From the NCBI GenBank assembly GCA_016929095.1, contig JAFGJM010000002.1, positions 128,137 to 192,136 on the forward strand: a DNA stretch of 64,000 nucleotides, in the 5' to 3' direction. Made by a program: the position numbers and the translations under genes. The notes beneath the pieces were generated by a model. That model searched no databases, was not told where the DNA came from, and worked only from the letters and a program-made list of their open reading frames with translations. Source of the DNA: Anaerolineales bacterium. GTDB taxonomy: Bacteria > Chloroflexota > Anaerolineae > Anaerolineales > UBA4823. Each line of letters opens with the position of its first letter. The stretch's first letter is position 1. Below are positions 1,982 through 15,013 of the stretch, in pieces.

Positions 1982-2006
1982 AGGTCCACCTCCGAATTGA
2001 AGATTG

Positions 2007-2559: not shown

Positions 2560-3020
2560 TCCTTGCCTCCAGTCTCACTCAAAAACCTCTGATAAATCTC
2601 TTCCTCTTTCCAGATTGCCTCATCCTGCATTGCCTGGATATCCGGGTCGGTCTCACCAGCGTAATATTCAGGCTTTTTCTCCATTTCTTCAGCTACCAAA
2701 ATATCCGCCAACATCGGATACTTCTTCTGCATGCGCCGCTTTATTCGTTTCTTTCGCACCTCCGCCAGCGTGTCTTTCGGCAATTTCTTATGTGGTGTTG
2801 ATACGGCAGAAATATGGCAACCATATCCATCGCCAAGGGTGTGCAAGGCGGATAGTTGCCTTGGGAAATACTCATCTCCATTGGCTACACGGTTTTTTCG
2901 TTGCTTGATGGTTTCAAACATCTCAGCAATCACTCTGGGTTTACCCTCCGGCGGGTCAGTATAGGGATTACCCCATTGCAAGGTATAGTGATAGCCAATG
3001 TGCGTCATATCATTTCCCAT
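2556..3020 (-). CDS. Hypothetical protein
   Basis: ORF 2556..3032. The start is ambiguous (ATG at 3020 or 3008) next to the upstream TGA at 3010-3012. Confidence 0.45.
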   Translation of the reverse strand: MGNDMTHIGYHYTLQWGNPYTDPPEGKPRVIAEMFETIKQRKNRVANGDEYFPRQLSALHTLGDGYGCHISAVSTPHKKLPKDTLAEVRKKRIKRRMQKKYPMLADILVAEEMEKKPEYYAGETDPDIQAMQDEAIWKEEEIYQRFLSETGGKE

Positions 3021-3888
3021 AATTGTCAACAAACTTTTGTAATTCCCGCCTCATTTCATCCTCACGGTTAACCGCTTCTTTCCATTTATCGAGATCCCGA
3101 TATTTCCATACCGCGGTTTTAACCAGCTCAGCCAAAATACGAGGTTCGATAGCATCCAGTTCCCAGGACGATTCCCCGTAGCGCCTTCGATATTGCTTAA
3201 AACGGGCATCGGTCTCTTTTGCCGGATTTTTGGGAGGCTGCCATTGCTCGATCTGATCCCAATTCAACGCCAGGCGTTCAACCTGAATATCATTGATATC
3301 GGCAAATAATTTCAACCGGTCTTCCACATCACGGGTCATATCGATCCCGGATGGGTCATGGTCTCCCAGGTAAAAAACAATGATTTCATGATTCCCATAT
3401 TTGCCAAGCAGCCTTTTTCCAATATCGTACATCGTGGAAGAAGATGAATATCCCTTATTAGCTGTAAACCGGATATCCAATTCTCGACAAACAGGTATAA
3501 GAACACCTTCCAGGGCTTGCTTTTCGACCATCACTTCGACGTGATAATCCTGGTTTTCCCACTTATCGATGGCAAATTGATCTGCTGCCGCTTCTACAAT
3601 TTCAGCCGGATTATCCCAATGGGTTGAGAATACCGTATGCCTGCCCCGGTCGGTGATCATGTTCCAGTCAACCAGACCAGCCAGACGAGCGTTATTCAAC
3701 AGGTCGCCGGTGCGTTTATATGAACGTTCCGAGTTTTCAATATATCCCCTGGCGACCAATTGGTAGTAAAGCTGTCGAAGAGAAAGATCGTATCCCTCAG
3801 CTGCATATTCTGCCAAAATGGAATTGATCAAATCGATTTTTTGAAGGCTTTCCGGTTTGAACCGTTTTTCAATGAATTGCTCTTTCAT
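3010..3888 (-). CDS. Stand-alone Spo11 / topoisomerase VI subunit A-like protein (winged helix with catalytic-Tyr motif + Toprim)
   Basis: LSLRQLYYQLV matches the R-x-(I/L)-(F/Y)-Y catalytic tyrosine motif. Toprim glutamate in VMVEKQALEGVL. Toprim acidic cluster in FYLGDHDPSGIDM. No B-subunit/GHKL ATPase gene is nearby. Confidence 0.6.
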   Translation of the reverse strand: MKEQFIEKRFKPESLQKIDLINSILAEYAAEGYDLSLRQLYYQLVARGYIENSERSYKRTGDLLNNARLAGLVDWNMITDRGRHTVFSTHWDNPAEIVEAAADQFAIDKWENQDYHVEVMVEKQALEGVLIPVCRELDIRFTANKGYSSSSTMYDIGKRLLGKYGNHEIIVFYLGDHDPSGIDMTRDVEDRLKLFADINDIQVERLALNWDQIEQWQPPKNPAKETDARFKQYRRRYGESSWELDAIEPRILAELVKTAVWKYRDLDKWKEAVNREDEMRRELQKFVDNYGK

Positions 3889-3903
3889 AGGATTTCCGCT
3901 CTC

Positions 3904-4482
3904 TCACACTTCCACCCTGGGCTTTATCAATAATTGCGCCGCCAATCTATTCGCCCTGGTCTCCCGGTTGTGGATCACCTTGACCCCGGTGACGCCCTGC
4001 GCCTGGCTATAACACTCCTCCAGGGTCTCTACCCACCTGCCGGGGATAAATATATAGTTCGTTTCTTCTACATTCGGGGCAAATAAACAGCCTCGCTTAG
4101 GAAATTCGGGCCGCCCGTCGGTATATTTTAAATACACAATCCTGTCTTTCACGCCTTCCACAAAACCCCAAACGGCGATATGTTTCCGATATCGGTTATA
4201 CGCGCCGGGTATATGCGCGCCCAATCTAATAAAACTATGCAATGTCAAACCATCTTTTTCGAAGACATAAGCCTGGCCGGAAGTATCATAATGCACAACC
4301 GCCCGCTTACCCAGGGTTTGGGTCACCTCTACGATCTTCTCGCAAATCCGTTGATCGTGAGCCTGTGTCAGCCAGTTCAATTTGTAAGCGATCAACTTGT
4401 TCAATCCGGTATCGTCCGAACAGTCTTCCGGCATAGCCATCTCTGATAATTGGGTATCAAGCGCCATATCCATGATATTCAA
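3904..4482 (-). CDS. Hypothetical protein
   Basis: 192-aa ORF; its ATG overlaps the upstream stop (ATGA). Confidence 0.5.
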   Translation of the reverse strand: MNIMDMALDTQLSEMAMPEDCSDDTGLNKLIAYKLNWLTQAHDQRICEKIVEVTQTLGKRAVVHYDTSGQAYVFEKDGLTLHSFIRLGAHIPGAYNRYRKHIAVWGFVEGVKDRIVYLKYTDGRPEFPKRGCLFAPNVEETNYIFIPGRWVETLEECYSQAQGVTGVKVIHNRETRANRLAAQLLIKPRVEV

Positions 4483-4685
4483 TTCGCCCTCTCTAAATGC
4501 AAACTTCCGTTTTTTGATACCGACACTATCTTGTAAATAACTCCGCGAATTTCTAGTGTCATACCGCGCCTGGGTTTAAATACTCTCACTTCCTTTATTT
4601 CCGGATCGTTCAATATTTCTTTCATCTTTTCGACGTCGAAAGGTAGAGGCTCTAATGCCTCTCCATTTTTGGTAATTGGTTGCAT
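4479..4685 (-). CDS. Hypothetical small protein
   Basis: 68-aa ORF with a GGAGA RBS in the 15-nt spacer upstream. Confidence 0.45.
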   Translation of the reverse strand: MQPITKNGEALEPLPFDVEKMKEILNDPEIKEVRVFKPRRGMTLEIRGVIYKIVSVSKNGSLHLERAN

Positions 4686-4700
4686 GAATATTTCTCCTCT

Positions 4701-5534
4701 CTATATCTCAATCCCGTACTTCTCCGCCAGGTCATTTATCATCCCGACTCTTTGTATGGCTCGGTAGTGAGCCGCAACGGTCATGTCGTCTTTTTTCATC
4801 ATTTTGCCTATTGCCACCCAACTCAAGCCCTTCGCCTTTGCCTGGATCAAAAAAGCATCGGCGTCGTCTGACCAATTAATGCTGAAGCCCGCCCCGCGGC
4901 CTTTTGGAAAATACAGACCTGGCTTTAAAACCTCGCTTTTCTTGAGTCGCCAGTTGCCCCACTTCTTTCCCTGTATTTTCCCCATATGAATATAGCGGTT
5001 GATATCTCGTTGATCCACACCGTGCCAGGCAGCTGCTTGCCCTGGCGTCCACCATTCATCGTTCCATCGGGCAGCTTCGAGAGCCAGCAGCCGCTTCAAT
5101 TTTTTATCACGGACGTTCTCGACCTTGAAGTATATCCAGCGCTCCGGGTTGACCGCCCATTGATAAAGCTTCGCCTTTCGAATATTCAAAATACCTTTGA
5201 CGCCGGGTATTATCTCCATCGGCAATATCCCCATCCTGGAAAGTTTCATAATACAGTGGATATCCACGCCCAGGGTTTTCGCTGCCTGATGGCCGGTCAA
5301 CCAGCCCGGCCGCCTCGAGTGCGCCGGCATACCTTTGCGTATGCGCCTGATCTTGATCGCCGCCTCGGTTCTGCCCAACGCCAGCCCTATTTCTTCATCG
5401 GTCATTTTCCCGATCTTGGAACGCACAAATTGTTCTTCTTCGAAGAGCCAGGGTTTCCTGACGTATACCCGGGTATCTTTCTCTACCACGGCGACCTGCC
5501 ATACAATATCGGCAATCATGTGAACCACATCCAT
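4701..5534 (-). CDS. Multi-HTH DNA-binding protein (sigma-r4-like, two excisionase/MerR-like HTH, Myb/SANT-like C-terminus)
   Basis: MTDEEIGLALGRTEAAIKIRR; LTGHQAAKTLGVDIHCIMKLSRMG; WTPGQAAAWHGVDQRDINRYIHMG; WSDDADAFLIQAKAKGLSW. Start moved to ATG 5534 (TAATG overlap with the ParB-like stop). Confidence 0.5.
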   Translation of the reverse strand: MDVVHMIADIVWQVAVVEKDTRVYVRKPWLFEEEQFVRSKIGKMTDEEIGLALGRTEAAIKIRRIRKGMPAHSRRPGWLTGHQAAKTLGVDIHCIMKLSRMGILPMEIIPGVKGILNIRKAKLYQWAVNPERWIYFKVENVRDKKLKRLLALEAARWNDEWWTPGQAAAWHGVDQRDINRYIHMGKIQGKKWGNWRLKKSEVLKPGLYFPKGRGAGFSINWSDDADAFLIQAKAKGLSWVAIGKMMKKDDMTVAAHYRAIQRVGMINDLAEKYGIEI

Positions 5535-6394
5535 TACGGCTTTCCCGCTTCTAACATCCGCCGCAATAACTCGACCGCCGGACAATTTCTGCAGCTTTCT
5601 TCCGATGCCACCGGCCGTAATCCGCAACCTTCGCAGGTTGCCGACGCGGCATCTTCCACGACTTTCCACGGCGGTACTTTCCCCAATTGCCGCAAGATAT
5701 CCCAATCTGTTCGCTTTTTACGCTCCTGAACCCGCACCCTGGCAAGAGTGATCGCCGGCGCCCCTTGATTGTATTGACAAGGTTTGTCGGTCATGGCTTT
5801 AGCGACCCGGTCGCATATTCTTAGACTGGTATCCAGTTTTACCCGCCGGCGGACGATTTCTCGGGTAGTTTGTACACGCGCTTGCCGGTCGGTGATGGCA
5901 AGTAAACCCTTGGCAAGACGCGGGTCTCTGTGCAGACTACCAACCGCAATCATTTCCTGGATTTCCGCATCCAGCTTCAATAAAAGCAAACGGTCGTCGA
6001 TGGTCTTGCGGCACTTCCCGGTTTTTAAAGCTATTTGATCGACGCTGAATCCGAATTCTTTTTGAAGGCGCTTATAGCCCAGGGCTTCTTCGATGGGGTT
6101 CAAATCCGCCCGCTGCAAATTGGCGACCATCGCCTGTAACAGGCGCTTGCCGGCGCCGTTGCTGTACGGGGTAATGGCGGCAGGTATTTCTGTCAAACCA
6201 GCCAGCTTCGAGGCTCGCAAACGCCTCTCGCCGTCGACCAGCATATATTTCCCATCGCCCGTTTCCTCGACCGTGACCGCCTGGATCACCCCGTTCTCTC
6301 TAATACTTTGCGCCAAGTCTTCCAGGGAAGTCTGGTCGAAGGTCTTCCGGGGTTGGTCGGGATTGGGAATGATTTTGTTTATTGGAATATTCAT
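5534..6394 (-). CDS. ParB/Spo0J N-terminal-domain (ParB-like nuclease) protein
   Basis: IPINKIIPNPDQPRKTFDQTSLEDLAQSIRENGVIQAVTV...LVDGERRLRASKLAG. Start at ATG 6394, preceded by AAGGAG. The upstream in-frame extension looks non-coding. Confidence 0.75.
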   Translation of the reverse strand: MNIPINKIIPNPDQPRKTFDQTSLEDLAQSIRENGVIQAVTVEETGDGKYMLVDGERRLRASKLAGLTEIPAAITPYSNGAGKRLLQAMVANLQRADLNPIEEALGYKRLQKEFGFSVDQIALKTGKCRKTIDDRLLLLKLDAEIQEMIAVGSLHRDPRLAKGLLAITDRQARVQTTREIVRRRVKLDTSLRICDRVAKAMTDKPCQYNQGAPAITLARVRVQERKKRTDWDILRQLGKVPPWKVVEDAASATCEGCGLRPVASEESCRNCPAVELLRRMLEAGKP

Positions 6395-6536
6395 TTGATT
6401 AATACTCCTTTTCTTTCCTCCCCTTTCCCTGCCCGGGAAAACACCGAAAAACCGGGCAGGGATGTGGAGGGGGATTATGAGCCGGGAATGGGAGACCCGG
6501 GTATACGCCCATATACCTGAGCCGCGCCATCCCGAA

Positions 6537-6577
6537 TCGGCGGCCGGGGAGTCGAACCCCGATTTTCCTCTCCGCCG
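6537..6577 (-). ncRNA. tRNA-like acceptor/T-arm minihelix within a structured 190-nt intergenic spacer
   Basis: Minus strand reads CGGCGG-A-GAGGAAAAT-CGGGG-TTCGACT-CCCCG-G-CCGCCG-A. That gives a 6-bp acceptor-like stem, a canonical T-arm with a TTCGACT loop, and a discriminator-like A. Confidence 0.35.
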
Positions 6578-6585
6578 TATTAAAT

Positions 6586-7482
6586 CTAGGCATAGACGCT
6601 GCACACTTTCGCCAACGCTTTTTCGACATCCATGCCGCAGTCTTTAAATATCTCGAACGCTTTTTCAAGCTCCAGCCCATCCTCGCCGGCCTGCTTGAAA
6701 TAAGGCAGCGCAGTCATTGCCGGGGCAAAGTCGGTATTCTTTCCGGGCGCACCCCCCAACACCAGCCTGGCGATCTCCCTGGCAACTTCGCTGGTGAATT
6801 CAAACTTTCCTCCCGTGGCAGCAATGTAATAAGTGGTGGAGGATACGCGTTCAACAGATGTTGTGGTTGTGGCTGGCGGCGAGTTTGTCGGAGTGTCAGC
6901 CGTGGTAGTGGCCGATGGTGAATTCGTCGGAGTATCAGCCGTGGTTGTTGCAGGCGGCGAATTCGTTGGGGCATTTGTCGTACCTGTTGTTGGCAGCGCA
7001 ACGTGCGCCTTGTTGCCATTGCCGTTGCCTTTGATGATCGCATCCAGGTCTGTATCACCCAGTGGCCGGAAACATAAACCCAGGCTTTCCGTGCAGGCTT
7101 TCAAGGCATCGGTGACGACCGCCTTTAAGACAGTTTCGTACCGCTCAGGAGAAGTATCGTCCAACCCAACACTGTTGCCGTTTTTGTCTTTTGTTGCCAC
7201 CAAAGGCCAGACCCCGACGTCATCATGCGTGACGACTTTCCCGTCGGCAAATTCCACGGTGAGCCGTACCACCGCTTCGACATAGGCATTGTTGTCGTTC
7301 AATGTGACCAGATCCGGTCCCTTTGTGATCATGCTGCTCCAATGGTCAGGCCCGAATACCTGGTTGAGTTTCCATCGCACATAATCCCCGCTGGTAAACG
7401 GGCCTTTTATGCCCGGTTTGATTTTGATATATTTCTTCTCTACAGGAGAAGATAGTGCATCGATCTGTTCTTCGTGATTCAT
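6586..7482 (-). CDS. Rad52/22-type single-strand annealing protein with Pro/Thr-rich repeat linker
   Basis: YVRWKLNQVFGPDHWSSMI...AYVEAVVRLTVEF...GVWP resembles the Rad52/Sak annealing core. Start trimmed to ATG 7482 (GAGG RBS). Confidence 0.65.
   Translation of the reverse strand: MNHEEQIDALSSPVEKKYIKIKPGIKGPFTSGDYVRWKLNQVFGPDHWSSMITKGPDLVTLNDNNAYVEAVVRLTVEFADGKVVTHDDVGVWPLVATKDKNGNSVGLDDTSPERYETVLKAVVTDALKACTESLGLCFRPLGDTDLDAIIKGNGNGNKAHVALPTTGTTNAPTNSPPATTTADTPTNSPSATTTADTPTNSPPATTTTSVERVSSTTYYIAATGGKFEFTSEVAREIARLVLGGAPGKNTDFAPAMTALPYFKQAGEDGLELEKAFEIFKDCGMDVEKALAKVCSVYA
6863..6979. repeat. Three tandem 39-bp coding repeats (TNSP(P/S)ATTTADTP units)
   Basis: Units at 6863-6901, 6902-6940 and 6941-6979 are near-identical. 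They lie in-frame inside the Rad52-like CDS. Confidence 0.85.
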
Positions 7483-7496
7483 CAATAGCCTCGCTT

Positions 7497-8120
7497 TCAG
7501 CTGCAGCGGCTGCAGCTTTCGCATACTTCATTCTGGATTAACTCTTTCAGGATAGCTATCAGGCAGTCTTCCGGGCGCTCGTTCGCTTCTTTGGATTTCA
7601 ATTCTTCGATCTGCTGTTTGTCTGCCTGTTCCTGCGCTTCGCTATAAGCCTTCAATCGCTCCTCGTATATTTTCCCCCGCTCTTCAGCTACCGCCAGAGC
7701 AAGAGATAATTCGAGATATGCATCTCCACGTTCCCTCCAAGAGGGACGCAGCCCGGGGACAATAGCGGGTACATAAAACGTTACACCCGCCCCGATTCTC
7801 CAGGCGTCGTTTACGGTATTTCTTTCTACACAAAACATCAGCGGAGCATAACCAGGAATTTCAGCCCGCATGTAAATTTTCCCTGTGTCGAAACCTGTGA
7901 GCTCGTACCTTCTGTCCTCGATGTATTCCACCATCCACGGCCATTTTTCTTTGATCGGCGCAAGCGCTTCGTTCCACCCTCGAAGCTTTTCAGCGCGATA
8001 CTCTTCGTTACTCCGTTCTTCTTCGATCTGCAAGTTTGCGAGCTTTGTCCGCCCTTCCTCCAGCAGCGCTTCCAGGCTGCGCTCTTCGGTGTTTACTATA
8101 TATTCCGCTTGTGTTTCCAT
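7497..8120 (-). CDS. Hypothetical coiled-coil protein
   Basis: 207-aa ORF, GGAGGG RBS, charged helical termini. Confidence 0.5.
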   Translation of the reverse strand: METQAEYIVNTEERSLEALLEEGRTKLANLQIEEERSNEEYRAEKLRGWNEALAPIKEKWPWMVEYIEDRRYELTGFDTGKIYMRAEIPGYAPLMFCVERNTVNDAWRIGAGVTFYVPAIVPGLRPSWRERGDAYLELSLALAVAEERGKIYEERLKAYSEAQEQADKQQIEELKSKEANERPEDCLIAILKELIQNEVCESCSRCS

Positions 8121-8199
8121 AACTTCCCTCCATAGAACATATTTTCTAATTATATATGTTTTATAATGCCCGTCCGGGTCTCTAACCCGAAATTAATCT

Positions 8200-8592
8200 T
8201 TAGTACCAGTACCTCAAATCTACCTGTCCGTTTGGTACTTTGAATTCGCCGGTCGTGATCATGGTGCGCAAGCGCAGGATTTCTTCCCGGGTGCGCACCG
8301 GCATGGGTTTTCCTGAAAACGCCCGGCAGCGTTTTCCTCTTTCGAAATCGAACCAGGTCTTGCAATTCCATCCATTTTCATTGAGCCAGGCAACCATGTC
8401 GTCGAAAGGCTGTTCATCGGTGGTGTAGCTCTCATCCGCATAAGAGCCGGCAGTCCAGCCTTCTTTGTACTTGCTGACAAAAACCGATCCATCTACCTGT
8501 TCTGTCAGTTCTATCCTCGTGACCGGTTTTTTCTCGTAGTCGGGATCGTGCTTGAAATGATCCCATGAATACATATGCATTCGTTTCATCAC
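8200..8592 (-). CDS. Hypothetical protein
   Basis: 130-aa ORF with a GAGGTG RBS. Confidence 0.5.
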   Translation of the reverse strand: MMKRMHMYSWDHFKHDPDYEKKPVTRIELTEQVDGSVFVSKYKEGWTAGSYADESYTTDEQPFDDMVAWLNENGWNCKTWFDFERGKRCRAFSGKPMPVRTREEILRLRTMITTGEFKVPNGQVDLRYWY

Positions 8593-8628
8593 ACACCTCT
8601 ATCGGTTAAATTGCATCGGGATCTCGTT

Positions 8629-8730
8629 TTACAAAGTACTGTTTTTCCCGATCTGGTAAAGCTCGATAAGCCCCGGGGCGCTGCAGGCGATCACGATTAC
8701 GGCAATCCCGATCAGTTCTATCGTGGTCAT
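8629..8730 (-). CDS. Candidate 33-aa single-TM peptide (below ORF-track cutoff)
   Basis: MTTIELIGIAVIVIACSAPGLIELYQIGKNSTL. Its ATG overlaps the upstream TGA (ATGA at 8727-8730). Confidence 0.35.
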   Translation of the reverse strand: MTTIELIGIAVIVIACSAPGLIELYQIGKNSTL

Positions 8731-9302
8731 CCCGCTATCTCCTGCCATTGAATATCTGAGGCTTTGATGCTTTCGAAGAACCAATATTCAACGCTCTCTT
8801 CCGCCTCGGCGATCACGCGCTCTACAAATTTCTCGATCTCAAAATCGCTGCCCCCCTCGATCTCAGGCAGCCGGTTTATCAAAGTCTCGGCGGCGTCTGC
8901 GGCGCTCAGGTCGGTGGAATTTATCAGCCGGTCAATTCTTTGATAAAGAAATAAGCTGCTGCCCCATTTCAGACACCAACGCCAGATGATACGCCCGGCA
9001 GCTGCCAGCCGGGGCTTGATTTCCAGGAACGCCAGGTTATAGCGGTGGCATTCCGGGCAGTAATAAAAAATGTCAAGTGATGAGGGGGAATAGTTCTCGT
9101 TTTCGGGTATATGCAGCCATTGGCAGGCTTCGCCTTTTGCCAATGTTTTCCCGCAGCGTTTGCAGCAGGCTTTGCGTAAATTACTCTCGCCGGTAGGGAT
9201 AAAATGTTCTTCGTATTCGCCAGGGCGATAGCCGGCGCGCACCTGGTTGCACAAGTCTTCGATATTTGCTTCGTGTTGGGGGTTAATTCGCATTCCACTC
9301 AT
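8727..9302 (-). CDS. Hypothetical zinc-ribbon protein (first gene of leftward operon)
   Basis: CCKRCGK...CPECH Cys pairs; 191-aa ORF. Confidence 0.5.
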   Translation of the reverse strand: MSGMRINPQHEANIEDLCNQVRAGYRPGEYEEHFIPTGESNLRKACCKRCGKTLAKGEACQWLHIPENENYSPSSLDIFYYCPECHRYNLAFLEIKPRLAAAGRIIWRWCLKWGSSLFLYQRIDRLINSTDLSAADAAETLINRLPEIEGGSDFEIEKFVERVIAEAEESVEYWFFESIKASDIQWQEIAG

Positions 9303-9354
9303 TGAATTTTCCTGTTTTGGTATAAAAAAGGTTCATAATCTTCTGTAAAAATTA

Positions 9355-9383
9355 TTGGCAACAAGTATTGCCTATGTTAGAAT
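9355..9383 (+). promoter_or_regulatory. Sigma70-type promoter P1 (TTGGCA-N17-TAGAAT, TGT extended -10)
   Basis: -35 at 9355-9360, 17-nt spacer, -10 at 9378-9383. It ends 29 nt before the tRNA-like gene. Confidence 0.55.
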
Positions 9384-9411
9384 GTTTTTGTTGATATCCC
9401 TTTTCGACCAG

Positions 9412-9480
9412 GGGGCCGGTTGATGGCAACAAGACGGAATTCGCATTCGTCCTATGTGGGTTCGACTCCCACCGGCTCCA
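9412..9480 (+). ncRNA. Non-canonical tRNA-like cloverleaf RNA (tmRNA/tRNA-Ala-like acceptor and T-arm; possible regulatory RNA, phage tRNA or att remnant)
   Basis: Acceptor GGGGCCG/CGGCTCC with G3:U70. Mini D-arm GTTG-ATGG-CAAC. Stem ACGGA/TTCGT closing the 7-nt loop ATTCGCA. Variable CCTAT. T-arm GTGGG-TTCGACT-CCCAC. Discriminator A; no CCA encoded. Confidence 0.55.
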
Positions 9481-9497
9481 CAACACATTTTTGTTAA

Positions 9498-9526
9498 TTG
9501 ACAATTCCATAATTCGATGCTATTAT
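9498..9526 (+). promoter_or_regulatory. Sigma70-type promoter P2 (TTGACA-N17-TATTAT, TGC extended -10)
   Basis: -35 at 9498-9503 and -10 at 9521-9526. Predicted TSS is about 9532-9535. Confidence 0.6.
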
Positions 9527-9530
9527 AGAT

Positions 9531-9635
9531 ATGCGAATTCCGTCTTAGCCCACATGGGGCATCCCGATGAGTTCTTCGTGTATTGGACTCATCATTCATT
9601 AGCGCCGCTCCGGTTTTTCCGGAGCGGTTGTTTTT
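9531..9635 (+). ncRNA. Candidate small RNA 1 (about 105 nt) from P2 to an intrinsic terminator
   Basis: A consensus promoter and a terminator bracket about 105 nt with no credible ORF. The 5' 25 nt are complementary to the tRNA-like RNA. Internal hairpin GCCC-ACATG-GGGC. Confidence 0.5.
9605..9635 (+). terminator. Rho-independent terminator
   Basis: CCGCTCCGG-TTTTT-CCGGAGCGG followed by TTGTTTTT. Confidence 0.75.
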
Positions 9636-9660
9636 ATAAACCGCTTGATTATTTATTTCT

Positions 9661-9689
9661 TTGTTCATTGTGGTTTTTGATGCTAAAAT
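9661..9689 (+). promoter_or_regulatory. Sigma70-type promoter P3 (TTGTTC-N17-TAAAAT, TGC extended -10)
   Basis: -35 at 9661-9666 and -10 at 9684-9689. It shares GATGCTA with P2. Confidence 0.5.
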
Positions 9690-9695
9690 AAATAT

Positions 9696-9800
9696 GGTTT
9701 CCGTTCTTACGGCTGGGCGTTCCAGCCAGGGTGATCGCCGGTCTCCTGCCGGTATCACGATCCGCCGCTCCGGGGGTGTTTCGCCGGGGCGGTTTGTTTT
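9696..9800 (+). ncRNA. Candidate small RNA 2 (about 105 nt), paralogous cassette to small RNA 1
   Basis: Hairpins GGCTGG-GCGTT-CCAGCC and GTGAT..CCGG-TCTCCTG-CCGG..ATCAC. The terminator uses the same left arm CGCCGCTCCGG as cassette 1. Confidence 0.45.
9765..9800 (+). terminator. Rho-independent terminator
   Basis: CCGCTCCGG / CCGGGGCGG stem (one G:U), 10-nt loop, then TTTGTTTT. Confidence 0.7.
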
Positions 9801-9848
9801 ACGGGGGAGATAATTATCAATTAAGTATTTTGACTTCATAACAAACAC

Positions 9849-9877
9849 AATATAGCATAAACTTATCAATATGTCAA
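9849..9877 (-). promoter_or_regulatory. Leftward sigma70-type promoter PL (TTGACA-N17-TATATT, TGC extended -10)
   Basis: Minus strand: -35 at 9877-9872 and -10 at 9854-9849. The 8-mer TTATCAAT (9863-9870) sits in its spacer. Confidence 0.55.
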
Positions 9878-9905
9878 GATGTTGATACTGTTACTAGTAT
9901 ATATC

Positions 9906-9934
9906 TTGACATGCGTTATCAATTGTGCTAATAT
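9906..9934 (+). promoter_or_regulatory. Rightward promoter PR for the XRE gene (TTGACA-N17-TAATAT, TGC extended -10)
   Basis: -35 at 9906-9911 and -10 at 9929-9934. The 8-mer TTATCAAT (9916-9923) sits in its spacer. Confidence 0.6.
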
Positions 9935-9967
9935 GTACTCAATAAAACTTTTCGGGAAAGGAGTGAA

Positions 9968-10201
9968 ATGCTCGTTGATATGGCTACAGGGACTCGTTTT
10001 TTGCGGGTCTCCGAAATACGAGAGCAAGCCGGCATTAGCGTTGAAGAACTAGCAACTCGCGCCGATATTGCTTACAATACAGCGCTATCGTATGAGCGAG
10101 ATGTGAGCGAATTGATTAGTAAAAAAGTGTTACGAAAAATCGCAAAAGCTCTCGGTGTCAGGGTTCGCGATTTAATCGCTGACGATGAGGAGACAAATTA
10201 A
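9968..10201 (+). CDS. XRE-family (Cro/CI-type) HTH transcriptional regulator
   Basis: VSEIREQAGISVEELATRADIAYNTALSYERD...LRKIAKALGVRVRDLI. AAAGGAG RBS. Confidence 0.8.
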   Translation: MLVDMATGTRFLRVSEIREQAGISVEELATRADIAYNTALSYERDVSELISKKVLRKIAKALGVRVRDLIADDEETN

Positions 10202-10389
10202 AAAACGAAGTCCCCGGTCATAAAACCGAGAACCTCATTTCCCAAAAATATGGGCATCATTTTCTCCACCCGGGAGCTTGCCGGCTAAAGGTGGAGAACC
10301 AAACAACTCAAAGGAGTTGGGATGGTAAATAAAACAATTGATTATTCAATCGATCCGCATATCTCCATCAATCAATATAATTTACATTG

Positions 10390-11127
10390 CTATCTTGTCG
10401 CAGTTGGGAATTGAACATACTTGGATAATGTTTTTGTTGGAAATGGCGATTTTGTCGCCACAATTCGGTTGGTCGGATATGGAGTTGGTGAACCGTGATT
10501 ATCAAAAATAGCCTTTGTGGACACAATCAAATTATCACAATTCGGCGCGCACGCTTCAATTTCCTTGATCATCTCGACGACTTTCAGCGCCGCAACATTG
10601 CCCATGCCTATATATTCACCCGCCAAAGTGCTGTCTGCATCTTGCATAAACTCCATATATCCCTGAATGTAATAATCCATCGCATCGATATATATAGTTT
10701 TCAACTCTTCCATACAATGCGGTACCTCGACTTTTTGCGTTTCCCGTCGGATCTCTTGAAGGTTGGCAACCGGGCTAGACAAAGCGATCCTGGGCGTGCT
10801 GTTCGCAATATCGATAGCATCTCCCCAGCGAAGTTGGATATCTCTCAAATCTGCCATTGCCCTATCAACATCGGATTTACGACATGTGTTATTTGCACTT
10901 GAATAATTATTATTAGAACCGGAAAAATTAAGAGCTATGAGCGAGAGCGCCAAAATAACAACAATTGCCATGACAACATTCATTACTTTGTTATATGTAT
11001 TCCACCGATTGCGTTTACTCGGTTTATTGATTTTTTCCCTGGCATCGGATACATTCAGCGCCGCACCGCATCCAGAACAATACCTGGCTGCTGCATCATT
11101 TTCATATCCGCAATGTTCACATTTCAT
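10390..11127 (-). CDS. Zinc-ribbon / single-TM membrane-anchored protein
   Basis: MKCEHCGYENDAAARYCSGCGA zinc ribbon, then TM VMNVVMAIVVILALSLIAL and an extracytoplasmic domain. Confidence 0.6.
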   Translation of the reverse strand: MKCEHCGYENDAAARYCSGCGAALNVSDAREKINKPSKRNRWNTYNKVMNVVMAIVVILALSLIALNFSGSNNNYSSANNTCRKSDVDRAMADLRDIQLRWGDAIDIANSTPRIALSSPVANLQEIRRETQKVEVPHCMEELKTIYIDAMDYYIQGYMEFMQDADSTLAGEYIGMGNVAALKVVEMIKEIEACAPNCDNLIVSTKAIFDNHGSPTPYPTNRIVATKSPFPTKTLSKYVQFPTATR

Positions 11128-11237
11128 ATTTCACCCCTTTAGGAAAATAACCTGTGATTAACCCGATTAAACACTTGCATATTTATATGCCTTATGGCAT
11201 AAATAGAATAGATGTTCGAGAACAGGAGGACACAATA

Positions 11238-11387
11238 TTATTTTTCGATTTTTGTAGCCGGCTTCTGAGTTTGATTTTTATGATCGGCCTCTTTAACGTG
11301 TACTGTTGTCATTGGCTTTGGTAATGTTTTTTCTTTTGGGTTTTTTGGCGGATTATTTTGTTTGAATGAAGAGTATTTTGTAATCAT
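11238..11387 (-). CDS. Candidate 49-aa Lys/Pro-rich peptide (below ORF-track cutoff)
   Basis: MITKYSSFKQNNPPKNPKEKTLPKPMTTVHVKEADHKNQTQKPATKIEK. It uses the minus-strand reading of the palindromic GGAGATCTCC as its SD. Confidence 0.25.
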   Translation of the reverse strand: MITKYSSFKQNNPPKNPKEKTLPKPMTTVHVKEADHKNQTQKPATKIEK

Positions 11388-11398
11388 GGAGATCTCCT

Positions 11399-11929
11399 AT
11401 GGCTAAAAATCTTGATACAATGCCCTTCAGCGGCAATATCGAAGGTTATAAATGGGCAATATCAGAACTTAAAGACAATCTATCGAATCAATATATAAGT
11501 ATCACAGCCTCAAAAAATATTGCCCAATCTATGTTTTCGTCATCCAGTATGATTATTGCTATCATTGGCGTTTTTCAAATTTTGAATATATCTATCAATC
11601 CAGAAATCGCAACTCTTTATAACGTGATCCTATTGTTGGCTTTGCTTCTTTATGTATCACTGGTTATTTTGTGTATCTTTGTATTAACGCCGCCTGATGT
11701 ATATGGTACAACTGGCAATGATTGGGATGAAATTTATCCTGCATTTATTGATCAAAAAGAAGATCGTCAGATATATCGCCAGTTGATTTCAAATTACATA
11801 AGTGCTATCGAAAATAACAAACCTATAATCACAAAAAGAGTTTTGCTTTCTAAAATAACAGGATATTTATTTGCGTGTATTGTGATTATGGTATTTGTAT
11901 TAATATTGCTTCCTCTCTATAATCCATAA
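11399..11929 (+). CDS. Three-TM membrane protein of unknown function
   Basis: TMs at MIIAIIGVFQIL, ILLLALLLYVSLVILCIFVL and YLFACIVIMVFVLILLPL. SD GGAG lies 7 nt upstream. Confidence 0.6.
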   Translation: MAKNLDTMPFSGNIEGYKWAISELKDNLSNQYISITASKNIAQSMFSSSSMIIAIIGVFQILNISINPEIATLYNVILLLALLLYVSLVILCIFVLTPPDVYGTTGNDWDEIYPAFIDQKEDRQIYRQLISNYISAIENNKPIITKRVLLSKITGYLFACIVIMVFVLILLPLYNP

Positions 11930-12057
11930 AAAGTCCGGCCGGCGCAAGTGCAATACCTGCGCCAGCCGATGAGACTTGCTGACCTGCAAAATCTACCCAG
12001 ATCACCCAGGCCAGCGCAGAACCTTAACAACGAAATCGCTGTCAAAGCTTCCACAGA

Positions 12058-12131
<74 letters not shown>

Positions 12132-12459
12132 ATGCGGACGAATTATACCGCAAAGAAATGAGATGTCAACTTTATGCCCCTTATGACTCTCTGTATCTTT
12201 TTATATACATTTTTACCTAAAATTTCCCCGTTTTTTACTTACAAATCTATTTATTCTTTATATTTTGTTTATATTTTTACGCAAGTTTTACGGTAAGTAT
12301 TTACTAACCCTGTATAGTGTAAAGAACCATAATGGTAAGAATCGGTCGAGATCCCTAGTGGCATCTTGTGAATAATTAAGGGTTGAAAACGATTATTGTT
12401 GTCATATTGCCTGCCTGAATAATTAAATACGTGATTTTTAGAAATAGGATTTCTGGCAT

Positions 12460-13986
12460 ATGAACGATCTATACTCTCGTAAACACCAGATTCTCATCAT
12501 CGATGATGAGATTATCCTGGCAAATAACATGAAGAATCAGCTTCAACGATTTGGGTATGAAGTGCTCGTTGGTCCCACATCCGGTAAAGATGCCATTCCC
12601 TTCACGATTAACCTTAAACCGGATCTGGTTATTATGGATATTTTTCTTAATGGCGAACCGGACGGGATTGAAGTCTCCAAGAAAATCAACACAGTCTTGG
12701 ACATACCCATCATCTATTCCACAGCTTTTGCCGATGAAGACACCATCAACAGAGCCAGCATCAGTGCCCCTTATGGCTATCTGATCAAACCCATCGATTT
12801 AAACGAATTGCATAGCAGCATCGAAATCGCCTTATACAAACATAAGATGGAGAAAATCCTCAAAGAAAGCGAACAACGTTACCGTTTGATCTCTGAATTA
12901 ACTTCCGATTTCGCTTACGCTTACCGCATCGATCCGGATGGCAATTGCATCAGAGAGTGGGTCACCGATGCTTTTCAGCGCATCACCGGATTTTTACCCG
13001 ATCAAATTGACCCATGCATCGGTTGGCTTAGCCTGGTACACCCGGATGATACCTCCATCGTAACGCAACGCCAAATTCGGCTTACCGAAGGTTATTCGGA
13101 TGTCAGCGAATATCGCATACTTCACAAGGATGGACAATACCGCTGGCTGCGAGATTATTCTCGTCCGATGAAAGATTCCCCCAATCAATCGGTTACCCAC
13201 ATTATCGGCGCCGCCCAAGATATTACACTTTCAAAATATATGGAAAGTCAACTCCAAATATCCCAAAAACGACTTATTCAAAATTCACGCCTGGCAGCTA
13301 TCGGGGAATTAGCTTCGGGTTTTGCTCATCATATCAATAATCCGCTTACGTCAATTTTAGCCGAAGCCCAGCTTATGCTTCATAGCTTACCAGTTGATCA
13401 TCCGTGCCGGGAATCAGCGGACGCCATCCAAAAAGCTTCATGGCGCGTTTTCAATGATATCCAGAAATTGATCGAATTATCCAAACCAATTACGATCACC
13501 CTCGAAAAAACGAGTATTAATAACACACTGGAAACAGCCACAAGCCTCATCACCGATCATTTATCCATAAAACAAGTAGATGTAAAACAAATATTCTCTT
13601 ATGCCAATCCTTGCATCCTGGCAAATGAATATCAACTGTGGGATTTATGGATAAATCTCTTATTGCTTACTTTAGACGCCAATCCAAAACATATCGAGAT
13701 AAAAACCTCGATTTCGCCCGATAATTTAGCCGTAGTAGATATTTGGGACGATGGTAAATATATATCACCGGCAGAAATTGAAGCATTACTCGATGCCGAC
13801 TTCATTACTCTTCCTGGGGAAAGAGGCATCGGCATCGAAATGCGTATTTATCAGGAAATCATTCGTCAATATGGAGGAGAAATCTCCATCGTAAGCGACG
13901 AAAAAGATGGTACTACCCAATCGATCACTTTTCCATTAATTGCGGAAGTTCAAAATCAGCAAGCTGAAATTAGGACTTTCGATTAA
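12460..13986 (+). CDS. Hybrid sensor: receiver + PAS + histidine kinase
   Basis: REC (ILIIDDE, DLVIMDI), PAS region, H-box FAHHINNPLTSI, C-terminal HATPase (GIGIEM...GG). Confidence 0.8.
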   Translation: MNDLYSRKHQILIIDDEIILANNMKNQLQRFGYEVLVGPTSGKDAIPFTINLKPDLVIMDIFLNGEPDGIEVSKKINTVLDIPIIYSTAFADEDTINRASISAPYGYLIKPIDLNELHSSIEIALYKHKMEKILKESEQRYRLISELTSDFAYAYRIDPDGNCIREWVTDAFQRITGFLPDQIDPCIGWLSLVHPDDTSIVTQRQIRLTEGYSDVSEYRILHKDGQYRWLRDYSRPMKDSPNQSVTHIIGAAQDITLSKYMESQLQISQKRLIQNSRLAAIGELASGFAHHINNPLTSILAEAQLMLHSLPVDHPCRESADAIQKASWRVFNDIQKLIELSKPITITLEKTSINNTLETATSLITDHLSIKQVDVKQIFSYANPCILANEYQLWDLWINLLLLTLDANPKHIEIKTSISPDNLAVVDIWDDGKYISPAEIEALLDADFITLPGERGIGIEMRIYQEIIRQYGGEISIVSDEKDGTTQSITFPLIAEVQNQQAEIRTFD

Positions 13987-14005
13987 ACAAGATATAATTC
14001 AATAT

Positions 14006-15013
14006 ATGCAAGCTGATCTATCCATAACATCCATACCTGGTATTCGAGTTGGTCATGCCCAAGATTTCGATGCATTAACCGGTTGTACTGTCATCCTTTG
14101 CCCAAAAGGAGCGACAGGGGGCATCGACCAACGCGGAGGAGCTCCCGGAACCCGCGAATCAGACGCCCTACACCCCATGCACCTGGTCGAGAAAGTTCAT
14201 GCCATTGCCCTGGCTGGCGGCTCTGCTTTTGGATTGGACGCCGCAGCGGGCGTCATGAAATATTTAGAAGAGCAAGGCGTGGGATTTGAAACCGGCGCCG
14301 GGAAGGTGCCCACTGTGCCGGCTGCCATTCTTTTCGATTTAAATATCGGTAAAAAAGAAATACGCCCCGATGCAGCTATGGGCTACCAGGCATGTTTGAA
14401 CGCTTCAAAAACTCCCCCTCAAGAAGGTAATTATGGCGCCGGTACCGGTGCAACCGTAGGCAAGATTTTAGGCATGGGTCAGGCTGTAAAAGCTGGCATA
14501 GGATGTGCAGCCATGGACATTGGCAATGGTGTTTTCGTAGCAGCAATTTTTGCCGTTAACGCATTTGGCGATGTGATTGATCCATCAAATGGAAAGATAC
14601 TGGCAGGCGCACGATCTCTGCAGAAAGGACCAATCCACATTGGGTCCGAAGAAACCTTTGCCGATACTCAGTCAATCATGAAATCCTTTATAGGGCGCAC
14701 CTCGTTAGGTTTTGCCTCTCGGGCAAACACAGTGATTGGCGTTGTCGCCAGTAATGCCCGATTGAACAAGGAAGAAACCAATAAAGTAGCACAAATGGCA
14801 CAAGATGGTCTTGCGCGCTGTATTCGCCCCGCCCATACGATGGTGGATGGCGATACCATATTTGCGATATCTACCGGCCCCAAAAAGGCCGATGTGAATA
14901 TTATTGGTGCTTTTGCCGCCGAAGTTACTTCGCAGGCAATTCTCCGTTCCGTTAAAATGGCAAAATCTATTGGCGGCGTACCCTCAATATGTGAATTAAA
15001 AAATGAACAATAA
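14006..15013 (+). CDS. P1/S58 (DmpA-type) family peptidase
   Basis: IPGIRVGHAQD...TGCTVIL...GGAPGTRE...ANTVIGVVASNA. Start trimmed to ATG 14006. Confidence 0.75.
   Translation: MQADLSITSIPGIRVGHAQDFDALTGCTVILCPKGATGGIDQRGGAPGTRESDALHPMHLVEKVHAIALAGGSAFGLDAAAGVMKYLEEQGVGFETGAGKVPTVPAAILFDLNIGKKEIRPDAAMGYQACLNASKTPPQEGNYGAGTGATVGKILGMGQAVKAGIGCAAMDIGNGVFVAAIFAVNAFGDVIDPSNGKILAGARSLQKGPIHIGSEETFADTQSIMKSFIGRTSLGFASRANTVIGVVASNARLNKEETNKVAQMAQDGLARCIRPAHTMVDGDTIFAISTGPKKADVNIIGAFAAEVTSQAILRSVKMAKSIGGVPSICELKNEQ

What the first reader, a model, noticed from the sequence alone, without database searches (positions are those of the whole stretch)
9355..9480. Non-canonical 69-nt tRNA-like gene with G3:U70 acceptor and tmRNA-like 3' end, driven by its own consensus promoter
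The cloverleaf is explicit in the sequence:
- a 7-bp acceptor GGGGCCG/CGGCTCC with a G:U at 3:70, which is the alanine identity pair shared by tRNA-Ala and tmRNA;
- a canonical T-arm GTGGG-TTCGACT-CCCAC;
- discriminator A.

Three features are non-canonical:
- the D-arm is a 4-bp/4-nt mini hairpin that abuts the acceptor, so there are no nt 8-9;
- the anticodon-position loop ATTCGCA has a pyrimidine at position 37 (the anticodon would read TCG);
- CCA is not encoded.

It therefore looks like neither a standard decoding tRNA nor a full tmRNA, since there is no tag ORF and no pseudoknots. Possible readings are a regulatory tRNA-like RNA, a tmRNA tRNA-like-domain mimic, an odd phage tRNA, or an att-site relic.
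Basis: partly seen in the sequence, partly recalled or inferred. Interest (0 to 1): 0.7.

Follow-up and report, generated by a model that had tools for sequence, protein, structure and literature searches.

The report
tRNA-like RNA with matching antisense partner
A prophage in an Anaerolineales genome encodes a shortened, alanine-type tRNA look-alike next to a small RNA whose first 16 bases pair perfectly with the look-alike's anticodon arm, and the same pairing of two genes turns up in several unrelated phage and bacterial sequences, which points to an undescribed RNA-on-RNA control module.

Summary
Window 9412-9480 (+) folds into a 69-nt cloverleaf with a G3:U70 acceptor, a canonical T arm, A73, a 4-bp D hairpin abutting the acceptor, the loop AUUCGCA and no encoded CCA. 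A 10/12 sigma-70-like promoter lies at 9355-9383.

- **Detectors.** ARAGORN calls it tRNA-Arg(tcg) only at 95% thresholds. Rfam matches only the tRNA-like domain of tmRNA, at 33.6 bits against a cutoff of 47.
The anticodon-arm segment 9431-9446 is perfectly complementary over 16 nt to 9531-9546. That site lies at or within two bases of the start point predicted for a second, 11/12-consensus promoter, which drives a structured RNA of about 105 nt ending in an intrinsic terminator.
- **Recurrence.** A compact tRNA-like gene plus a small partner whose predicted 5' end matches the anticodon arm recurs in about five other lineages. The pairing sequences differ, and the partner lies in tandem, divergent or convergent layout.
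- **Reading.** I interpret it as a two-RNA antisense module built on a tRNA scaffold. It works like the phage c4 and CI antisense RNAs but is not a member of that family.
- **Open questions.** Whether the tRNA-like RNA decodes, is charged, or only base-pairs is unresolved. There is no expression data, and this exact sequence has no relatives in the collections searched.

The parts
9355..9383 (+). Promoter P1 of the tRNA-like gene (TTGGCA-17-TAGAAT, TG upstream of the -10)
   Evidence: 10 of 12 matches. The predicted start near 9390 would leave a leader of about 22 nt, presumably removed by RNase P (inferred).
9412..9480 (+). 69-nt compact tRNA-like RNA: G3:U70 acceptor, D hairpin abutting the acceptor, loop AUUCGCA, canonical T arm, A73
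   Evidence: Sequence; cloverleaf as the MFE fold; ARAGORN tRNA-Arg(tcg) only at thresholds of 95% or lower; Rfam tmRNA tRNA-like-domain match at 33.6 bits, below the cutoff of 47.
9431..9446 (+). Antisense segment of the tRNA-like RNA: 2-nt linker, 5' strand of the anticodon stem, the whole 7-nt loop and 1 nt beyond
   Evidence: Perfect 16-nt inverted repeat with 9531-9546 (I4; I2). Duplex energy -25.8 kcal/mol, reached by 0 of 500 shuffles.
9498..9526 (+). Promoter P2 of the partner small RNA (TTGACA-17-TATTAT, TG upstream of the -10)
   Evidence: 11 of 12 matches. The complement begins at 9531, the 5th nt after the -10 hexamer; standard spacing puts the start at 9532-9534.
9531..9637 (+). 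Partner sRNA-1, about 105 nt: a largely unpaired 5' tail of 16 nt (the MFE fold has one 3-bp hairpin within it) that is complementary to the tRNA-like RNA, two hairpins, and an intrinsic terminator at 9604-9628 followed by a T run
   Evidence: Terminator. Fold -41.8 kcal/mol, z = -4.7, 0 of 200 shuffles. The heterodimer is favoured by about 14 kcal/mol over the two monomers.
9657..9806 (+). Paralogous unit sRNA-2: a -10-like TGcTAAAAT, 5' tail AUGGUUUCCGUUCUUA, two hairpins of different sequence, terminator 9761-9800. It does not pair with the tRNA-like RNA.
   Evidence: Repeats D1 and D4; alignment; fold; duplex energy no better than shuffles.
9285..9295 (-). Candidate second target: GAAUGCGAAUU at +8 to +18 of the mRNA of the first leftward gene (8727-9302), complementary to the loop and 3' stem of the tRNA-like RNA
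   Evidence: D3; (the only other match of 11 nt or more in the 64 kb). Duplex -16.2 kcal/mol, reached by 4 of 500 shuffles. Weak evidence, specific to this window.
9351..9380 (-). Weak minus-strand promoter-like site overlapping P1; a possible promoter of the leftward operon
   Evidence: 9 of 12 matches.

Best explanation
The locus encodes a two-RNA antisense module.

**RNA 1 (9412-9480)** is a compact tRNA-shaped RNA. Its acceptor stem and T arm let the cell's tRNA machinery process and stabilise it: RNase P at the 5' end, 3' trimming and CCA addition. Its anticodon arm displays a 16-nt antisense sequence.

**RNA 2 (sRNA-1, about 9531-9637)** is made from its own strong promoter. It carries a largely single-stranded 5' tail that can nucleate on the 7-nt loop and invade the 5' strand of the anticodon stem. 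The result would be a 16-bp duplex that leaves the acceptor stem and T arm folded. Each RNA therefore masks the other.

**In this prophage,** the same loop also matches 11 nt just after the start codon of the first gene of the leftward early operon. My preferred circuit follows from that. The tRNA-like RNA represses that operon by antisense pairing, and sRNA-1, which copies the target sequence AUGCGAAUU, acts as its decoy or anti-repressor.

**Shown:** the sequences, the complementarity, the predicted folds, the consensus promoters and terminator, and the recurrence of the design elsewhere.

**Inferred:** transcription, processing, which RNA is the regulator, and the mRNA target.
For: **In the window**
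- The 16-nt inverted repeat is perfect. Its right arm begins at 9531, the 5th nt after the -10 hexamer of P2. Standard spacing puts the start point at 9532-9534, so the first one or two bases of the 16 may not be transcribed.
- The 5' tail of sRNA-1 is predicted to be largely unpaired (one 3-bp hairpin in the MFE fold). The RNA is far more structured than shuffles, z = -4.7.
- The heterodimer is favoured by about 14 kcal/mol, with the T arm retained.
- The arm-tail duplex is -25.8 kcal/mol, reached by 0 of 500 shuffles.

**The same design elsewhere, with unrelated pairing sequences**
- Tandem layout: L129 (16 nt, at +41, followed by a terminator), L262/L313 (13 nt, +64), L282 (12 nt, +53) and L235 (11 nt, +45, followed by a terminator).
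- Divergent layout: L188/L331, L326/L333 and L323/L329. The complement starts 7-10 nt after a promoter-like pair that the scan tool called in L188, L323 and L326 and that I read by eye in L329. An intrinsic terminator follows, called by the scan tool in L323 only and seen in the partner folds and by eye in the others.
- Convergent layout: L315, with a 20-nt complement.
- The loop and the partner change together between relatives: CUGG in L188/L331 against CUAG in L326/L333.

**Controls**
- With shuffled inner sequences the longest match never exceeds 11 nt, and reaches 11 in only 6 of 605 shuffles.
- Among 1110 ordinary tRNAs, only 4 have a downstream complement of 11 nt or more. One of them is L262 itself and two are tandem tRNA genes.

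**Context**
- The module lies in a prophage regulatory region, between a Cro/CI-type HTH gene and an early operon encoding ParB and a Rad52-like protein.
- The 11-nt match to the translation-initiation region gives -16.2 kcal/mol, reached by 4 of 500 shuffles.
Against: - No expression, processing or interaction data exist. All promoters and transcript ends are predictions.
- This exact sequence has no relatives, only one identical metagenome contig. Covariation therefore cannot be tested within its own lineage.
- Second promoters in L262, L235 and L129 were seen by eye only and were not called by the scan tool. In those loci the complement may simply lie in the 3' trailer of the same transcript.
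- The 11-nt mRNA match occurs only in this window. One match of that length is expected in 64 kb about 0.46 times by chance.
- Several related genes have canonical anticodon loops (CUG, CUA, UUA, CCA). That fits a decoding role better than a pure scaffold role.
- G3:U70 was imposed by my search pattern, so its conservation across the family has not been assessed.
Confidence: 0.45

Rival explanations
1. **A gated mis-sense or suppressor tRNA.** The compact RNA is a working tRNA. AlaRS charges it through G3:U70, and it reads CGA with anticodon UCG. The partner sRNA is an 'anti-tRNA' that masks the anticodon and so restrains a potentially toxic mistranslating tRNA, with toxin-antitoxin-like or timing logic.
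For: - ARAGORN accepts it as tRNA-Arg(tcg) at 95% thresholds.
- The same compact scaffold carries a normal Ala anticodon loop (CUUGCAA) in many phage genes.
- Partner-bearing relatives have canonical loops with anticodons not cognate for alanine: CUG, CUA (amber), UUA (ochre) and CCA.
- In most loci the partner seed covers the anticodon loop.
- In most loci the partner is minimal, a seed plus a terminator, like an antitoxin sRNA.
- No UGC-type gene has a partner: 0 of 13, against 6 of 43 for the others.
Against: - Position 37 is C in the window RNA, and a pyrimidine there is nearly unknown in decoding tRNAs (general knowledge).
- L235, L282 and L129 have anticodon arms that are not tRNA-like.
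- The association between partners and non-UGC anticodons is not significant, p = 0.19.
- Charging and ribosome use are untested.
Confidence: 0.25
2. **A DNA-level element.** The 16-bp inverted repeat flanking P2 would be a pair of protein-binding operators, or the ends of a small invertible promoter segment, rather than an RNA pairing site.
For: - The repeat brackets the P2 promoter, and its right arm overlaps the predicted start point.
- In L188 the upstream copy lies within a palindrome, TCTGGATCCAGA.
Against: - No recombinase was found in window 1-16 kb.
- An 84-bp spacer is very short for inversion (general knowledge).
- The HTH gene's own promoter region carries different repeats and no copy of this site.
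- In about ten loci one arm always falls in the anticodon arm of a tRNA-like gene. The other falls a few bases after a -10-like hexamer (none was recognisable in L282) and, where the end could be judged, ahead of a terminator, whatever the gene order. That pattern is expected for RNA ends, not for operators.
Confidence: 0.1
3. **A mimic of the tmRNA tRNA-like domain.** The RNA would be alanylated, bind SmpB and EF-Tu, and enter stalled ribosomes without supplying a tag. It would thereby interfere with, or replace, trans-translation. The partner RNA could dock on the anticodon-arm position like helix P2 of tmRNA.
For: - The best Rfam match is the tmRNA model, E = 7e-12 locally. The same holds for relatives.
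- The 25 nt at the 3' end are identical to real tmRNA 3' ends.
Against: - The score is below the Rfam cutoff.
- There is no tag reading frame and no pseudoknots.
- ARAGORN makes no tmRNA call even at 80% thresholds.
- No tag-like ORF occurs in the partner RNAs (read from the sequences).
- The D hairpin and anticodon-type arm resemble compact phage tRNAs rather than the open D loop of tmRNA.
Confidence: 0.08
4. **A decaying tRNA or att remnant, with chance complementarity.** The gene would be a dead copy of a phage tRNA or an old attachment-site fragment, and the neighbouring repeat would have no function.
For: - It falls below the default thresholds of both detectors.
- It is a singleton sequence.
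- Many tmRNA 3' ends in IMG/VR lie at prophage ends.
Against: - The cloverleaf is complete, with all seven acceptor pairs and its own 10/12 promoter.
- The gene is not at the edge of the element.
- The 3' segment has no second copy in the window.
- A perfect 16-nt repeat within about 100 bp is expected about 1e-5 times by chance (my own estimate), and the design recurs elsewhere.
Confidence: 0.07

Closest known systems
c4 antisense RNA of phages P1/P7 and CI RNA of satellite phage P4 (Rfam C4 family)
   Same: These are small prophage immunity RNAs. Their 5' and 3' ends form an acceptor-like stem, so RNase P matures them (c4 as an RNase P substrate: Hartmann et al. 1995, cited in PMC4919922). 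Their loops are antisense to sequences encoded nearby on the same strand. The features of CI rest on my own knowledge.
   Different: - The region has no match to any Rfam family other than the tmRNA and mascRNA models, even at E up to 10.
- This RNA has a true T arm, G3:U70 and an anticodon-type loop, so it is far more tRNA-like.
- Its complement is the 5' end of a separate, promoter-driven small RNA, not a ribosome-binding site within its own operon.
tmRNA tRNA-like domain (RF00023), including the reduced mitochondrial tmRNAs of jakobids
   Same: GGGG...CUCCA acceptor with G3:U70, a GGGUUCGAxUCCC T arm and discriminator A. The 25 nt at the 3' end are identical to real tmRNA genes.
   Different: No mRNA-like domain and no pseudoknots. 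It has a D hairpin and an anticodon-type arm. It scores 33.6 bits against a cutoff of 47.
Compact phage tRNA-Ala(UGC)-like genes in IMG/VR (for example L187, L202, L242, L249)
   Same: The layout is identical: a 7-bp acceptor directly followed by a 3-5-bp D hairpin with an NGG loop, 1-2 nt, a 6-7-bp anticodon stem, a 7-nt loop, a variable region of 2-4 nt and a normal T arm, 68-70 nt in all.
   Different: Those genes carry the canonical loop CUUGCAA and have no complementary partner. The window RNA has AUUCGCA, with C37, and does have a partner.
sRNA-antagonist pairs: the tRNA-precursor spacer 3'ETS-leuZ as an sRNA sponge, prophage anti-sRNAs, and CJnc180/190 of Campylobacter (PMC8687705)
   Same: One small RNA neutralises another by base-pairing with its seed. 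One partner can derive from a tRNA transcript.
   Different: Here the pairing surface is the anticodon arm of an intact tRNA-shaped RNA, and the two genes form a compact, portable cassette.
Engineered 'tRNA scaffold' RNAs, in which an insert replaces the anticodon arm to obtain stable, processed RNA (my own knowledge)
   Same: A functional sequence is displayed in the anticodon arm of a tRNA body.
   Different: That is a laboratory design. A natural counterpart has not, to my knowledge, been described.

Membership tests
Canonical bacterial tRNA | 7-bp acceptor stem, discriminator base, and a 5-bp T stem with a TΨC-type loop | tested here: met
Canonical bacterial tRNA | Connector nt 8-9 and a D arm with a loop of 7-11 nt | tested here: not met
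   The 4-bp, 4-nt hairpin starts directly after the acceptor. ARAGORN draws a 3-bp D stem.
Canonical bacterial tRNA | Anticodon loop with U33 and a purine at position 37 | tested here: not met
   The loop is AUUCGCA: U33 is present but position 37 is C.
Canonical bacterial tRNA | Detected at default thresholds by tRNA finders | tested here: not met
   ARAGORN makes no call at default settings and calls it only at 95% or below. Rfam finds nothing at gathering thresholds.
tmRNA (RF00023) | tRNA-like domain with G3:U70 and a T arm | tested here: met
   Alignment.
tmRNA (RF00023) | mRNA-like domain with a tag reading frame, plus pseudoknots, and a score above the cutoff | tested here: not met
   326 model positions are replaced by 31 nt; 33.6 bits against a cutoff of 47. 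ARAGORN makes no tmRNA call. The permuted-tmRNA model scores 14.7 bits, E = 0.89.
tmRNA (RF00023) | Alanylation and SmpB binding | not testable with these tools
   Needs biochemistry.
C4 / CI phage antisense RNAs (Rfam C4 family) | Match to the family covariance model | tested here: not met
   The family does not appear among matches at E up to 10 in 9200-9800.
C4 / CI phage antisense RNAs (Rfam C4 family) | Loop sequence antisense to a site encoded nearby on the same strand, in a prophage regulatory region | tested here: met
C4 / CI phage antisense RNAs (Rfam C4 family) | 5' end generated by RNase P | not testable with these tools
   Inferred only from the acceptor stem and T arm.
att-site remnant of a tRNA or tmRNA gene | Only the 3' part of the gene is present, at the edge of the element next to an integrase, and repeated at the other end | tested here: not met
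   The full cloverleaf is present. The gene lies about 2.6 kb from the tRNA-Lys boundary. There is no second copy in the window, and no integrase was found among the ORFs scanned in 861-16019. The far end of the element and the host ssrA gene lie outside the window.
Invertible promoter (inverton) | Inverted repeats flanking a promoter, plus a nearby site-specific recombinase | tested here: inconclusive
   The repeats do flank P2. No recombinase domain was found in the neighbouring ORFs. No reads were available to look for the flipped form.

The most novel reading that the evidence does not exclude
Compact tRNA-like genes with alanine identity and anticodons not cognate for alanine (UCG here; CUG, CUA, UUA and CCA elsewhere), each paired with a dedicated minimal antisense sRNA that masks the anticodon, would form a new class of RNA-only cassette. 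In it a mis-sense or suppressor tRNA, or a tmRNA-like ribosome poison, is the effector, and an 'anti-tRNA' sRNA is its switch or antidote. The cassette would be carried as a portable unit by phages, integrative elements and some chromosomes.
Probability: 0.2. Interest if true: 0.85.

Novelty: new variant of a known kind. Interest (0 to 1): 0.68.

Why it matters
If the pairing is functional, this is a natural case of a tRNA body used to display, or to be controlled through, an antisense sequence. It comes with a dedicated partner RNA and is found in several unrelated mobile elements.

- It would extend the small set of tRNA-mimicking phage regulators (c4, CI) to RNAs that are almost genuine tRNAs.
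- It raises a testable possibility: that phages carry switchable, mis-charging or suppressor tRNAs.
- It flags a class of genes that tRNA finders and Rfam currently miss or score below threshold.
- For this prophage, it suggests that part of the early-gene switch is RNA-based.

Tried and rejected
**My own error**
- The degenerate patterns were one base too short after the T loop (NCNNCTCCA instead of NNNNNCTCCA). They could not match the window's own geometry.
They returned mostly odd tRNA-Ala fragments. By luck they also returned L129, which has a 6-bp acceptor.
- The corrected pattern could only be run on viral contigs.
- G3:U70 and the GGG/CCC T stem were imposed by the pattern, so their conservation across the family cannot be judged.

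**Searches for relatives of this element that found nothing**
- blastn against the phage and E. coli collections.
- The neighbouring 191-aa protein has no homologue other than itself.
- Of the two protein anchors searched in IMG/VR, the 207-aa protein found nothing and the Rad52-like protein gave only one distant hit (27% identity), which I did not pursue.
- blastn of the L262 and L235 modules against cultured phages.

**Ideas rejected**
- A two-piece tmRNA with the tag encoded in sRNA-1: no tag-like frame ending before the terminator in any partner RNA (read from the sequences).
- sRNA-1 as a type I toxin mRNA: no ribosome-binding site, its ORF runs through the terminator, and partners elsewhere are only 50-60 nt.
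- The terminator of sRNA-1 as an attenuator: I found no alternative pairing of the 5' tail with the terminator arm.
- A leaderless mini-ORF beginning AUG plus the cognate codon (window and L262): the predicted start points do not fit, and it is absent from the other loci.
- sRNA-2 pairing with the tRNA-like RNA: no better than shuffles.
- The opposite-strand 165-aa ORF as a real gene: its codon score is near zero.
- The link between having a partner and having a non-Ala anticodon: not significant.

**Other**
- A MAFFT alignment of 20 compact genes misaligned the 5' ends. No covariance model or formal covariation count was therefore made.
- Literature searches found no description of such a module.
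Full report

Yes. Window 9412-9480 (+) reads GGGGCCG-GTTGATGGCAAC-AA-GACGGAATTCGCATTCGTC-CTAT-GTGGGTTCGACTCCCAC-CGGCTCC-A.

- A sigma-70-like promoter, TTGGCA-17-TAGAAT with an upstream TG, lies at 9355-9383.
- ARAGORN makes no call at default settings. At 95% thresholds it calls tRNA-Arg(tcg), 70 nt.
- Rfam finds nothing at gathering thresholds.
- With relaxed thresholds the best Rfam match is the tmRNA model. It aligns only the acceptor and T arm, and 326 model positions are replaced by 31 nt (33.6 bits, cutoff 47).
- The last 25 nt are identical to the 3' end of genuine tmRNA genes in more than 120 viral contigs. They occur only once in the window.
- The window's one ordinary tRNA, tRNA-Lys(CTT) at 12056-12132, also has no encoded CCA.
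- A gene caller had placed a 155-aa protein on the opposite strand across this region. That frame scores 0.003 bits per codon, against 0.12-0.32 for real genes in the window. I treat it as spurious.

**2. Where it lies**

The window comes from an Anaerolineales metagenome-assembled genome.

Bases 1 to about 12050 look like a prophage or integrative element that abuts tRNA-Lys. They encode DUF5131, ParB, a Rad52-like protein and a Cro/CI-type HTH protein. The only other contig carrying the neighbouring protein is 100% identical and ends inside that tRNA.

The tRNA-like gene lies between the HTH gene (9968-10201, +) and the leftward early operon, whose first gene is 8727-9302 (-).

**3.

Segment 9431-9446, AAGACGGAATTCGCAT, comprises the linker, the 5' strand of the anticodon stem, the whole 7-nt loop and one further base. 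It is perfectly complementary to 9531-9546 (I4; I2).

- The second arm begins at the 5th nt after the -10 hexamer of an 11/12-consensus promoter, TTGACA-17-TATTAT at 9498-9526. Standard spacing would put the start point at 9532-9534. An intrinsic terminator follows at 9604-9628.
- The predicted RNA of about 105 nt, sRNA-1, has a largely free 16-nt 5' tail (one 3-bp hairpin in the MFE fold), two hairpins and the terminator. Its fold gives z = -4.7, with 0 of 200 shuffles folding as well.
- The two RNAs prefer the heterodimer by about 14 kcal/mol, with the T arm intact.
- The arm-tail duplex is -25.8 kcal/mol, reached by 0 of 500 shuffles.
- A paralogous unit, sRNA-2 (9657-9806), has the same layout but different hairpin sequences and a different 5' tail. 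That tail does not pair with the tRNA-like RNA.
- The loop also matches 11 nt, GAAUGCGAAUU, at +8 to +18 of the mRNA of gene 8727-9302. This duplex is -16.2 kcal/mol, reached by 4 of 500 shuffles.
- sRNA-1 begins with the same AUGCGAAUU sequence.

**4. Related sequences**

This exact element has no relatives.

My first degenerate patterns were one base too short. They wasted the genome and metagenome scans. The corrected pattern on IMG/VR gave roughly 190 loci in all. Two findings came out of these.

*First, the odd D arm is not unique.* A class of 68-70-nt phage genes has the same layout: the acceptor directly followed by a short D hairpin with an NGG loop, a 6-7-bp anticodon stem and a short variable region. 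Many of them carry a normal tRNA-Ala loop, CUUGCAA. Others carry CUG, CUA, UUA, CCA or UCG.

*Second, a subset has a partner.* In each case a short stretch complementary to the anticodon arm lies nearby, usually a few bases downstream of a -10-like hexamer and ahead of a terminator.

| Layout | Locus | Complement |
|---|---|---|
| Tandem | L129 (Ca. Acidoferrum chromosome) | 16 nt, extending to 22 bp with a 2-nt bulge; followed by a terminator |
| Tandem | L262/L313 | 13 nt |
| Tandem | L282 | 12 nt |
| Tandem | L235 | 11 nt; followed by a terminator |
| Divergent | L188/L331, L326/L333, L323/L329 | starts 7-10 nt after a promoter-like pair |
| Convergent | L315 | 20 nt |

- Sources: tandem loci; divergent loci; convergent locus.
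- The scan tool called the divergent promoter pair in L188, L323 and L326 and a terminator in L323 only. The L329 promoter and the other terminators rest on partner folds and reading by eye. No -10-like hexamer was recognisable in L282, and no terminator was called in L262 or L282.
- The pairing sequences are unrelated between lineages. Between close relatives they change together: loop CUCUGGA in L188/L331 against CUCUAGA in L326/L333, with the same change in the partner.
- Controls: with shuffled inner sequences the longest match never exceeds 11 nt (6 of 605). Only 4 of 1110 ordinary tRNAs have a downstream complement of 11 nt or more, and those include L262 itself and two tandem tRNA genes.
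- Rfam has no family for the partner RNAs. It scores all these tRNA-like genes as sub-threshold tmRNA.

**5. How it most likely works**

The common core is an RNA-RNA pair. I hold this part with fairly high confidence.

A tRNA-shaped RNA is presumably matured by RNase P, 3' trimming and CCA addition. A small RNA has a 5' end that can seize its anticodon loop and open the 5' side of the anticodon stem.

The arguments for RNA pairing over a DNA site are as follows.

- The complement ends at or within a few bases of the predicted transcript start.
- It is followed by a terminator in most loci, and the partner sits in three different gene orders.
- Loop and partner change together between relatives.
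- One arm always falls in the exposed part of a structured RNA.

What the tRNA-like RNA does is inferred, not shown.

For this window I favour an antisense circuit. The tRNA-like RNA represses the first early-left gene by pairing just after its start codon. sRNA-1, a copy of that target, acts as decoy. This single reading accounts for all three sequence coincidences in the region, but the mRNA match is weak evidence.

The main rival is that the RNA is a charged, decoding tRNA (Ala at CGA) held in check by an anti-tRNA sRNA. The canonical anticodon loops of several relatives speak for this. C37 in the window RNA and the degenerate arms in L235, L282 and L129 speak against it. The trend that only genes with non-Ala anticodons have partners is not significant (6 of 43 against 0 of 13, p = 0.19).

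The DNA-level readings, the tmRNA-mimic reading and the relic reading are less likely, for the reasons given with each rival.

**6. Comparison with what is known**

The module works like the c4 RNA of P1/P7 and the CI RNA of P4. These are tRNA-mimicking antisense RNAs from prophage regulatory regions, and c4 is matured by RNase P (PMC4919922). It is not a member of that family, because the region shows no match to that Rfam model.

It shares the tRNA-like domain of tmRNA but lacks everything else that defines tmRNA. It is built like the compact phage tRNA-Ala genes but differs in the loop and in having a partner.

I found no description of a tRNA-like gene paired with a small RNA against its anticodon arm in the searchable literature. 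[quoted passage not shown]

**7. Verdict**

It is more interesting than described, because it is half of a recurrent two-RNA cassette. I rate it a new variant of a known kind, the tRNA-mimicking antisense regulators.

The function is unproven. There is no expression data, and the family sample is biased by my search pattern.

Noticed in passing
window 9657-9806 (+): A second small-RNA unit, paralogous to sRNA-1. It has the same -10 region, a 16-nt 5' tail, two hairpins and a terminator, but different hairpin sequences. Its 5' tail has no complement of 11 nt or more in the 64 kb. Its target is unknown.
   Followed up: partly
window 9351-9383 and 9849-9877: P1 overlaps a weaker promoter-like site on the opposite strand (9380-9351). 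A strong minus-strand promoter (9877-9849) is 73% similar to P2. It would send a leftward transcript antisense through both small-RNA genes and the tRNA-like gene.
   Followed up: no
window 12056-12132 (-) and L001: tRNA-Lys(CTT) lies at the apparent right end of the prophage-like region. The only other contig with this DNA (Logan SRR13394437) ends at window 12083, inside the tRNA. No integrase was found among the ORFs scanned in window 861-16019.
   Followed up: partly
window 6863-6979: Three tandem 39-nt repeats (72-100% identity) lie inside the Rad52-like ORF 6586-7524 (-).
   Followed up: no
L187, L202, L242, L249, L298, L302, L320, L215, L291, L310 (IMG/VR): These are compact tRNA-Ala(UGC)-like phage genes of 68-70 nt. 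They lack connector nt 8-9 and have a short D hairpin directly after the acceptor stem. ARAGORN missed several of them at default thresholds.
   Followed up: partly
L326/L333, L315, L321, L287 (IMG/VR): The same compact G3:U70 scaffold carries stop-codon anticodons: CUA (amber) and UUA (ochre). If charged by AlaRS, these would be alanine-inserting suppressor tRNAs.
   Followed up: no
L188, L331, L326, L333, L323, L329: The tRNA-like genes of these families have a palindrome (of the type ACGCTCAnTGAGCGT) between the -35 and -10 of their promoter. In L188 the gene lies about 50 nt upstream of a radC-like gene, so it may be the leader of that mRNA.
   Followed up: partly
L097 and L109, downstream of tRNA-Ser(tga): A 10-11-nt complement of the anticodon loop region (AAGTTTTCAAGA) lies 42 nt after the tRNA, just beyond its terminator. 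It is conserved in two related contigs. This may be a further case of the same idea with an ordinary tRNA, or it may be chance.
   Followed up: no
L329 587-801 (+): A strong match to Rfam RT-15 RNA (151.9 bits), a motif named for its association with reverse transcriptases. It is unrelated to the finding.
   Followed up: no
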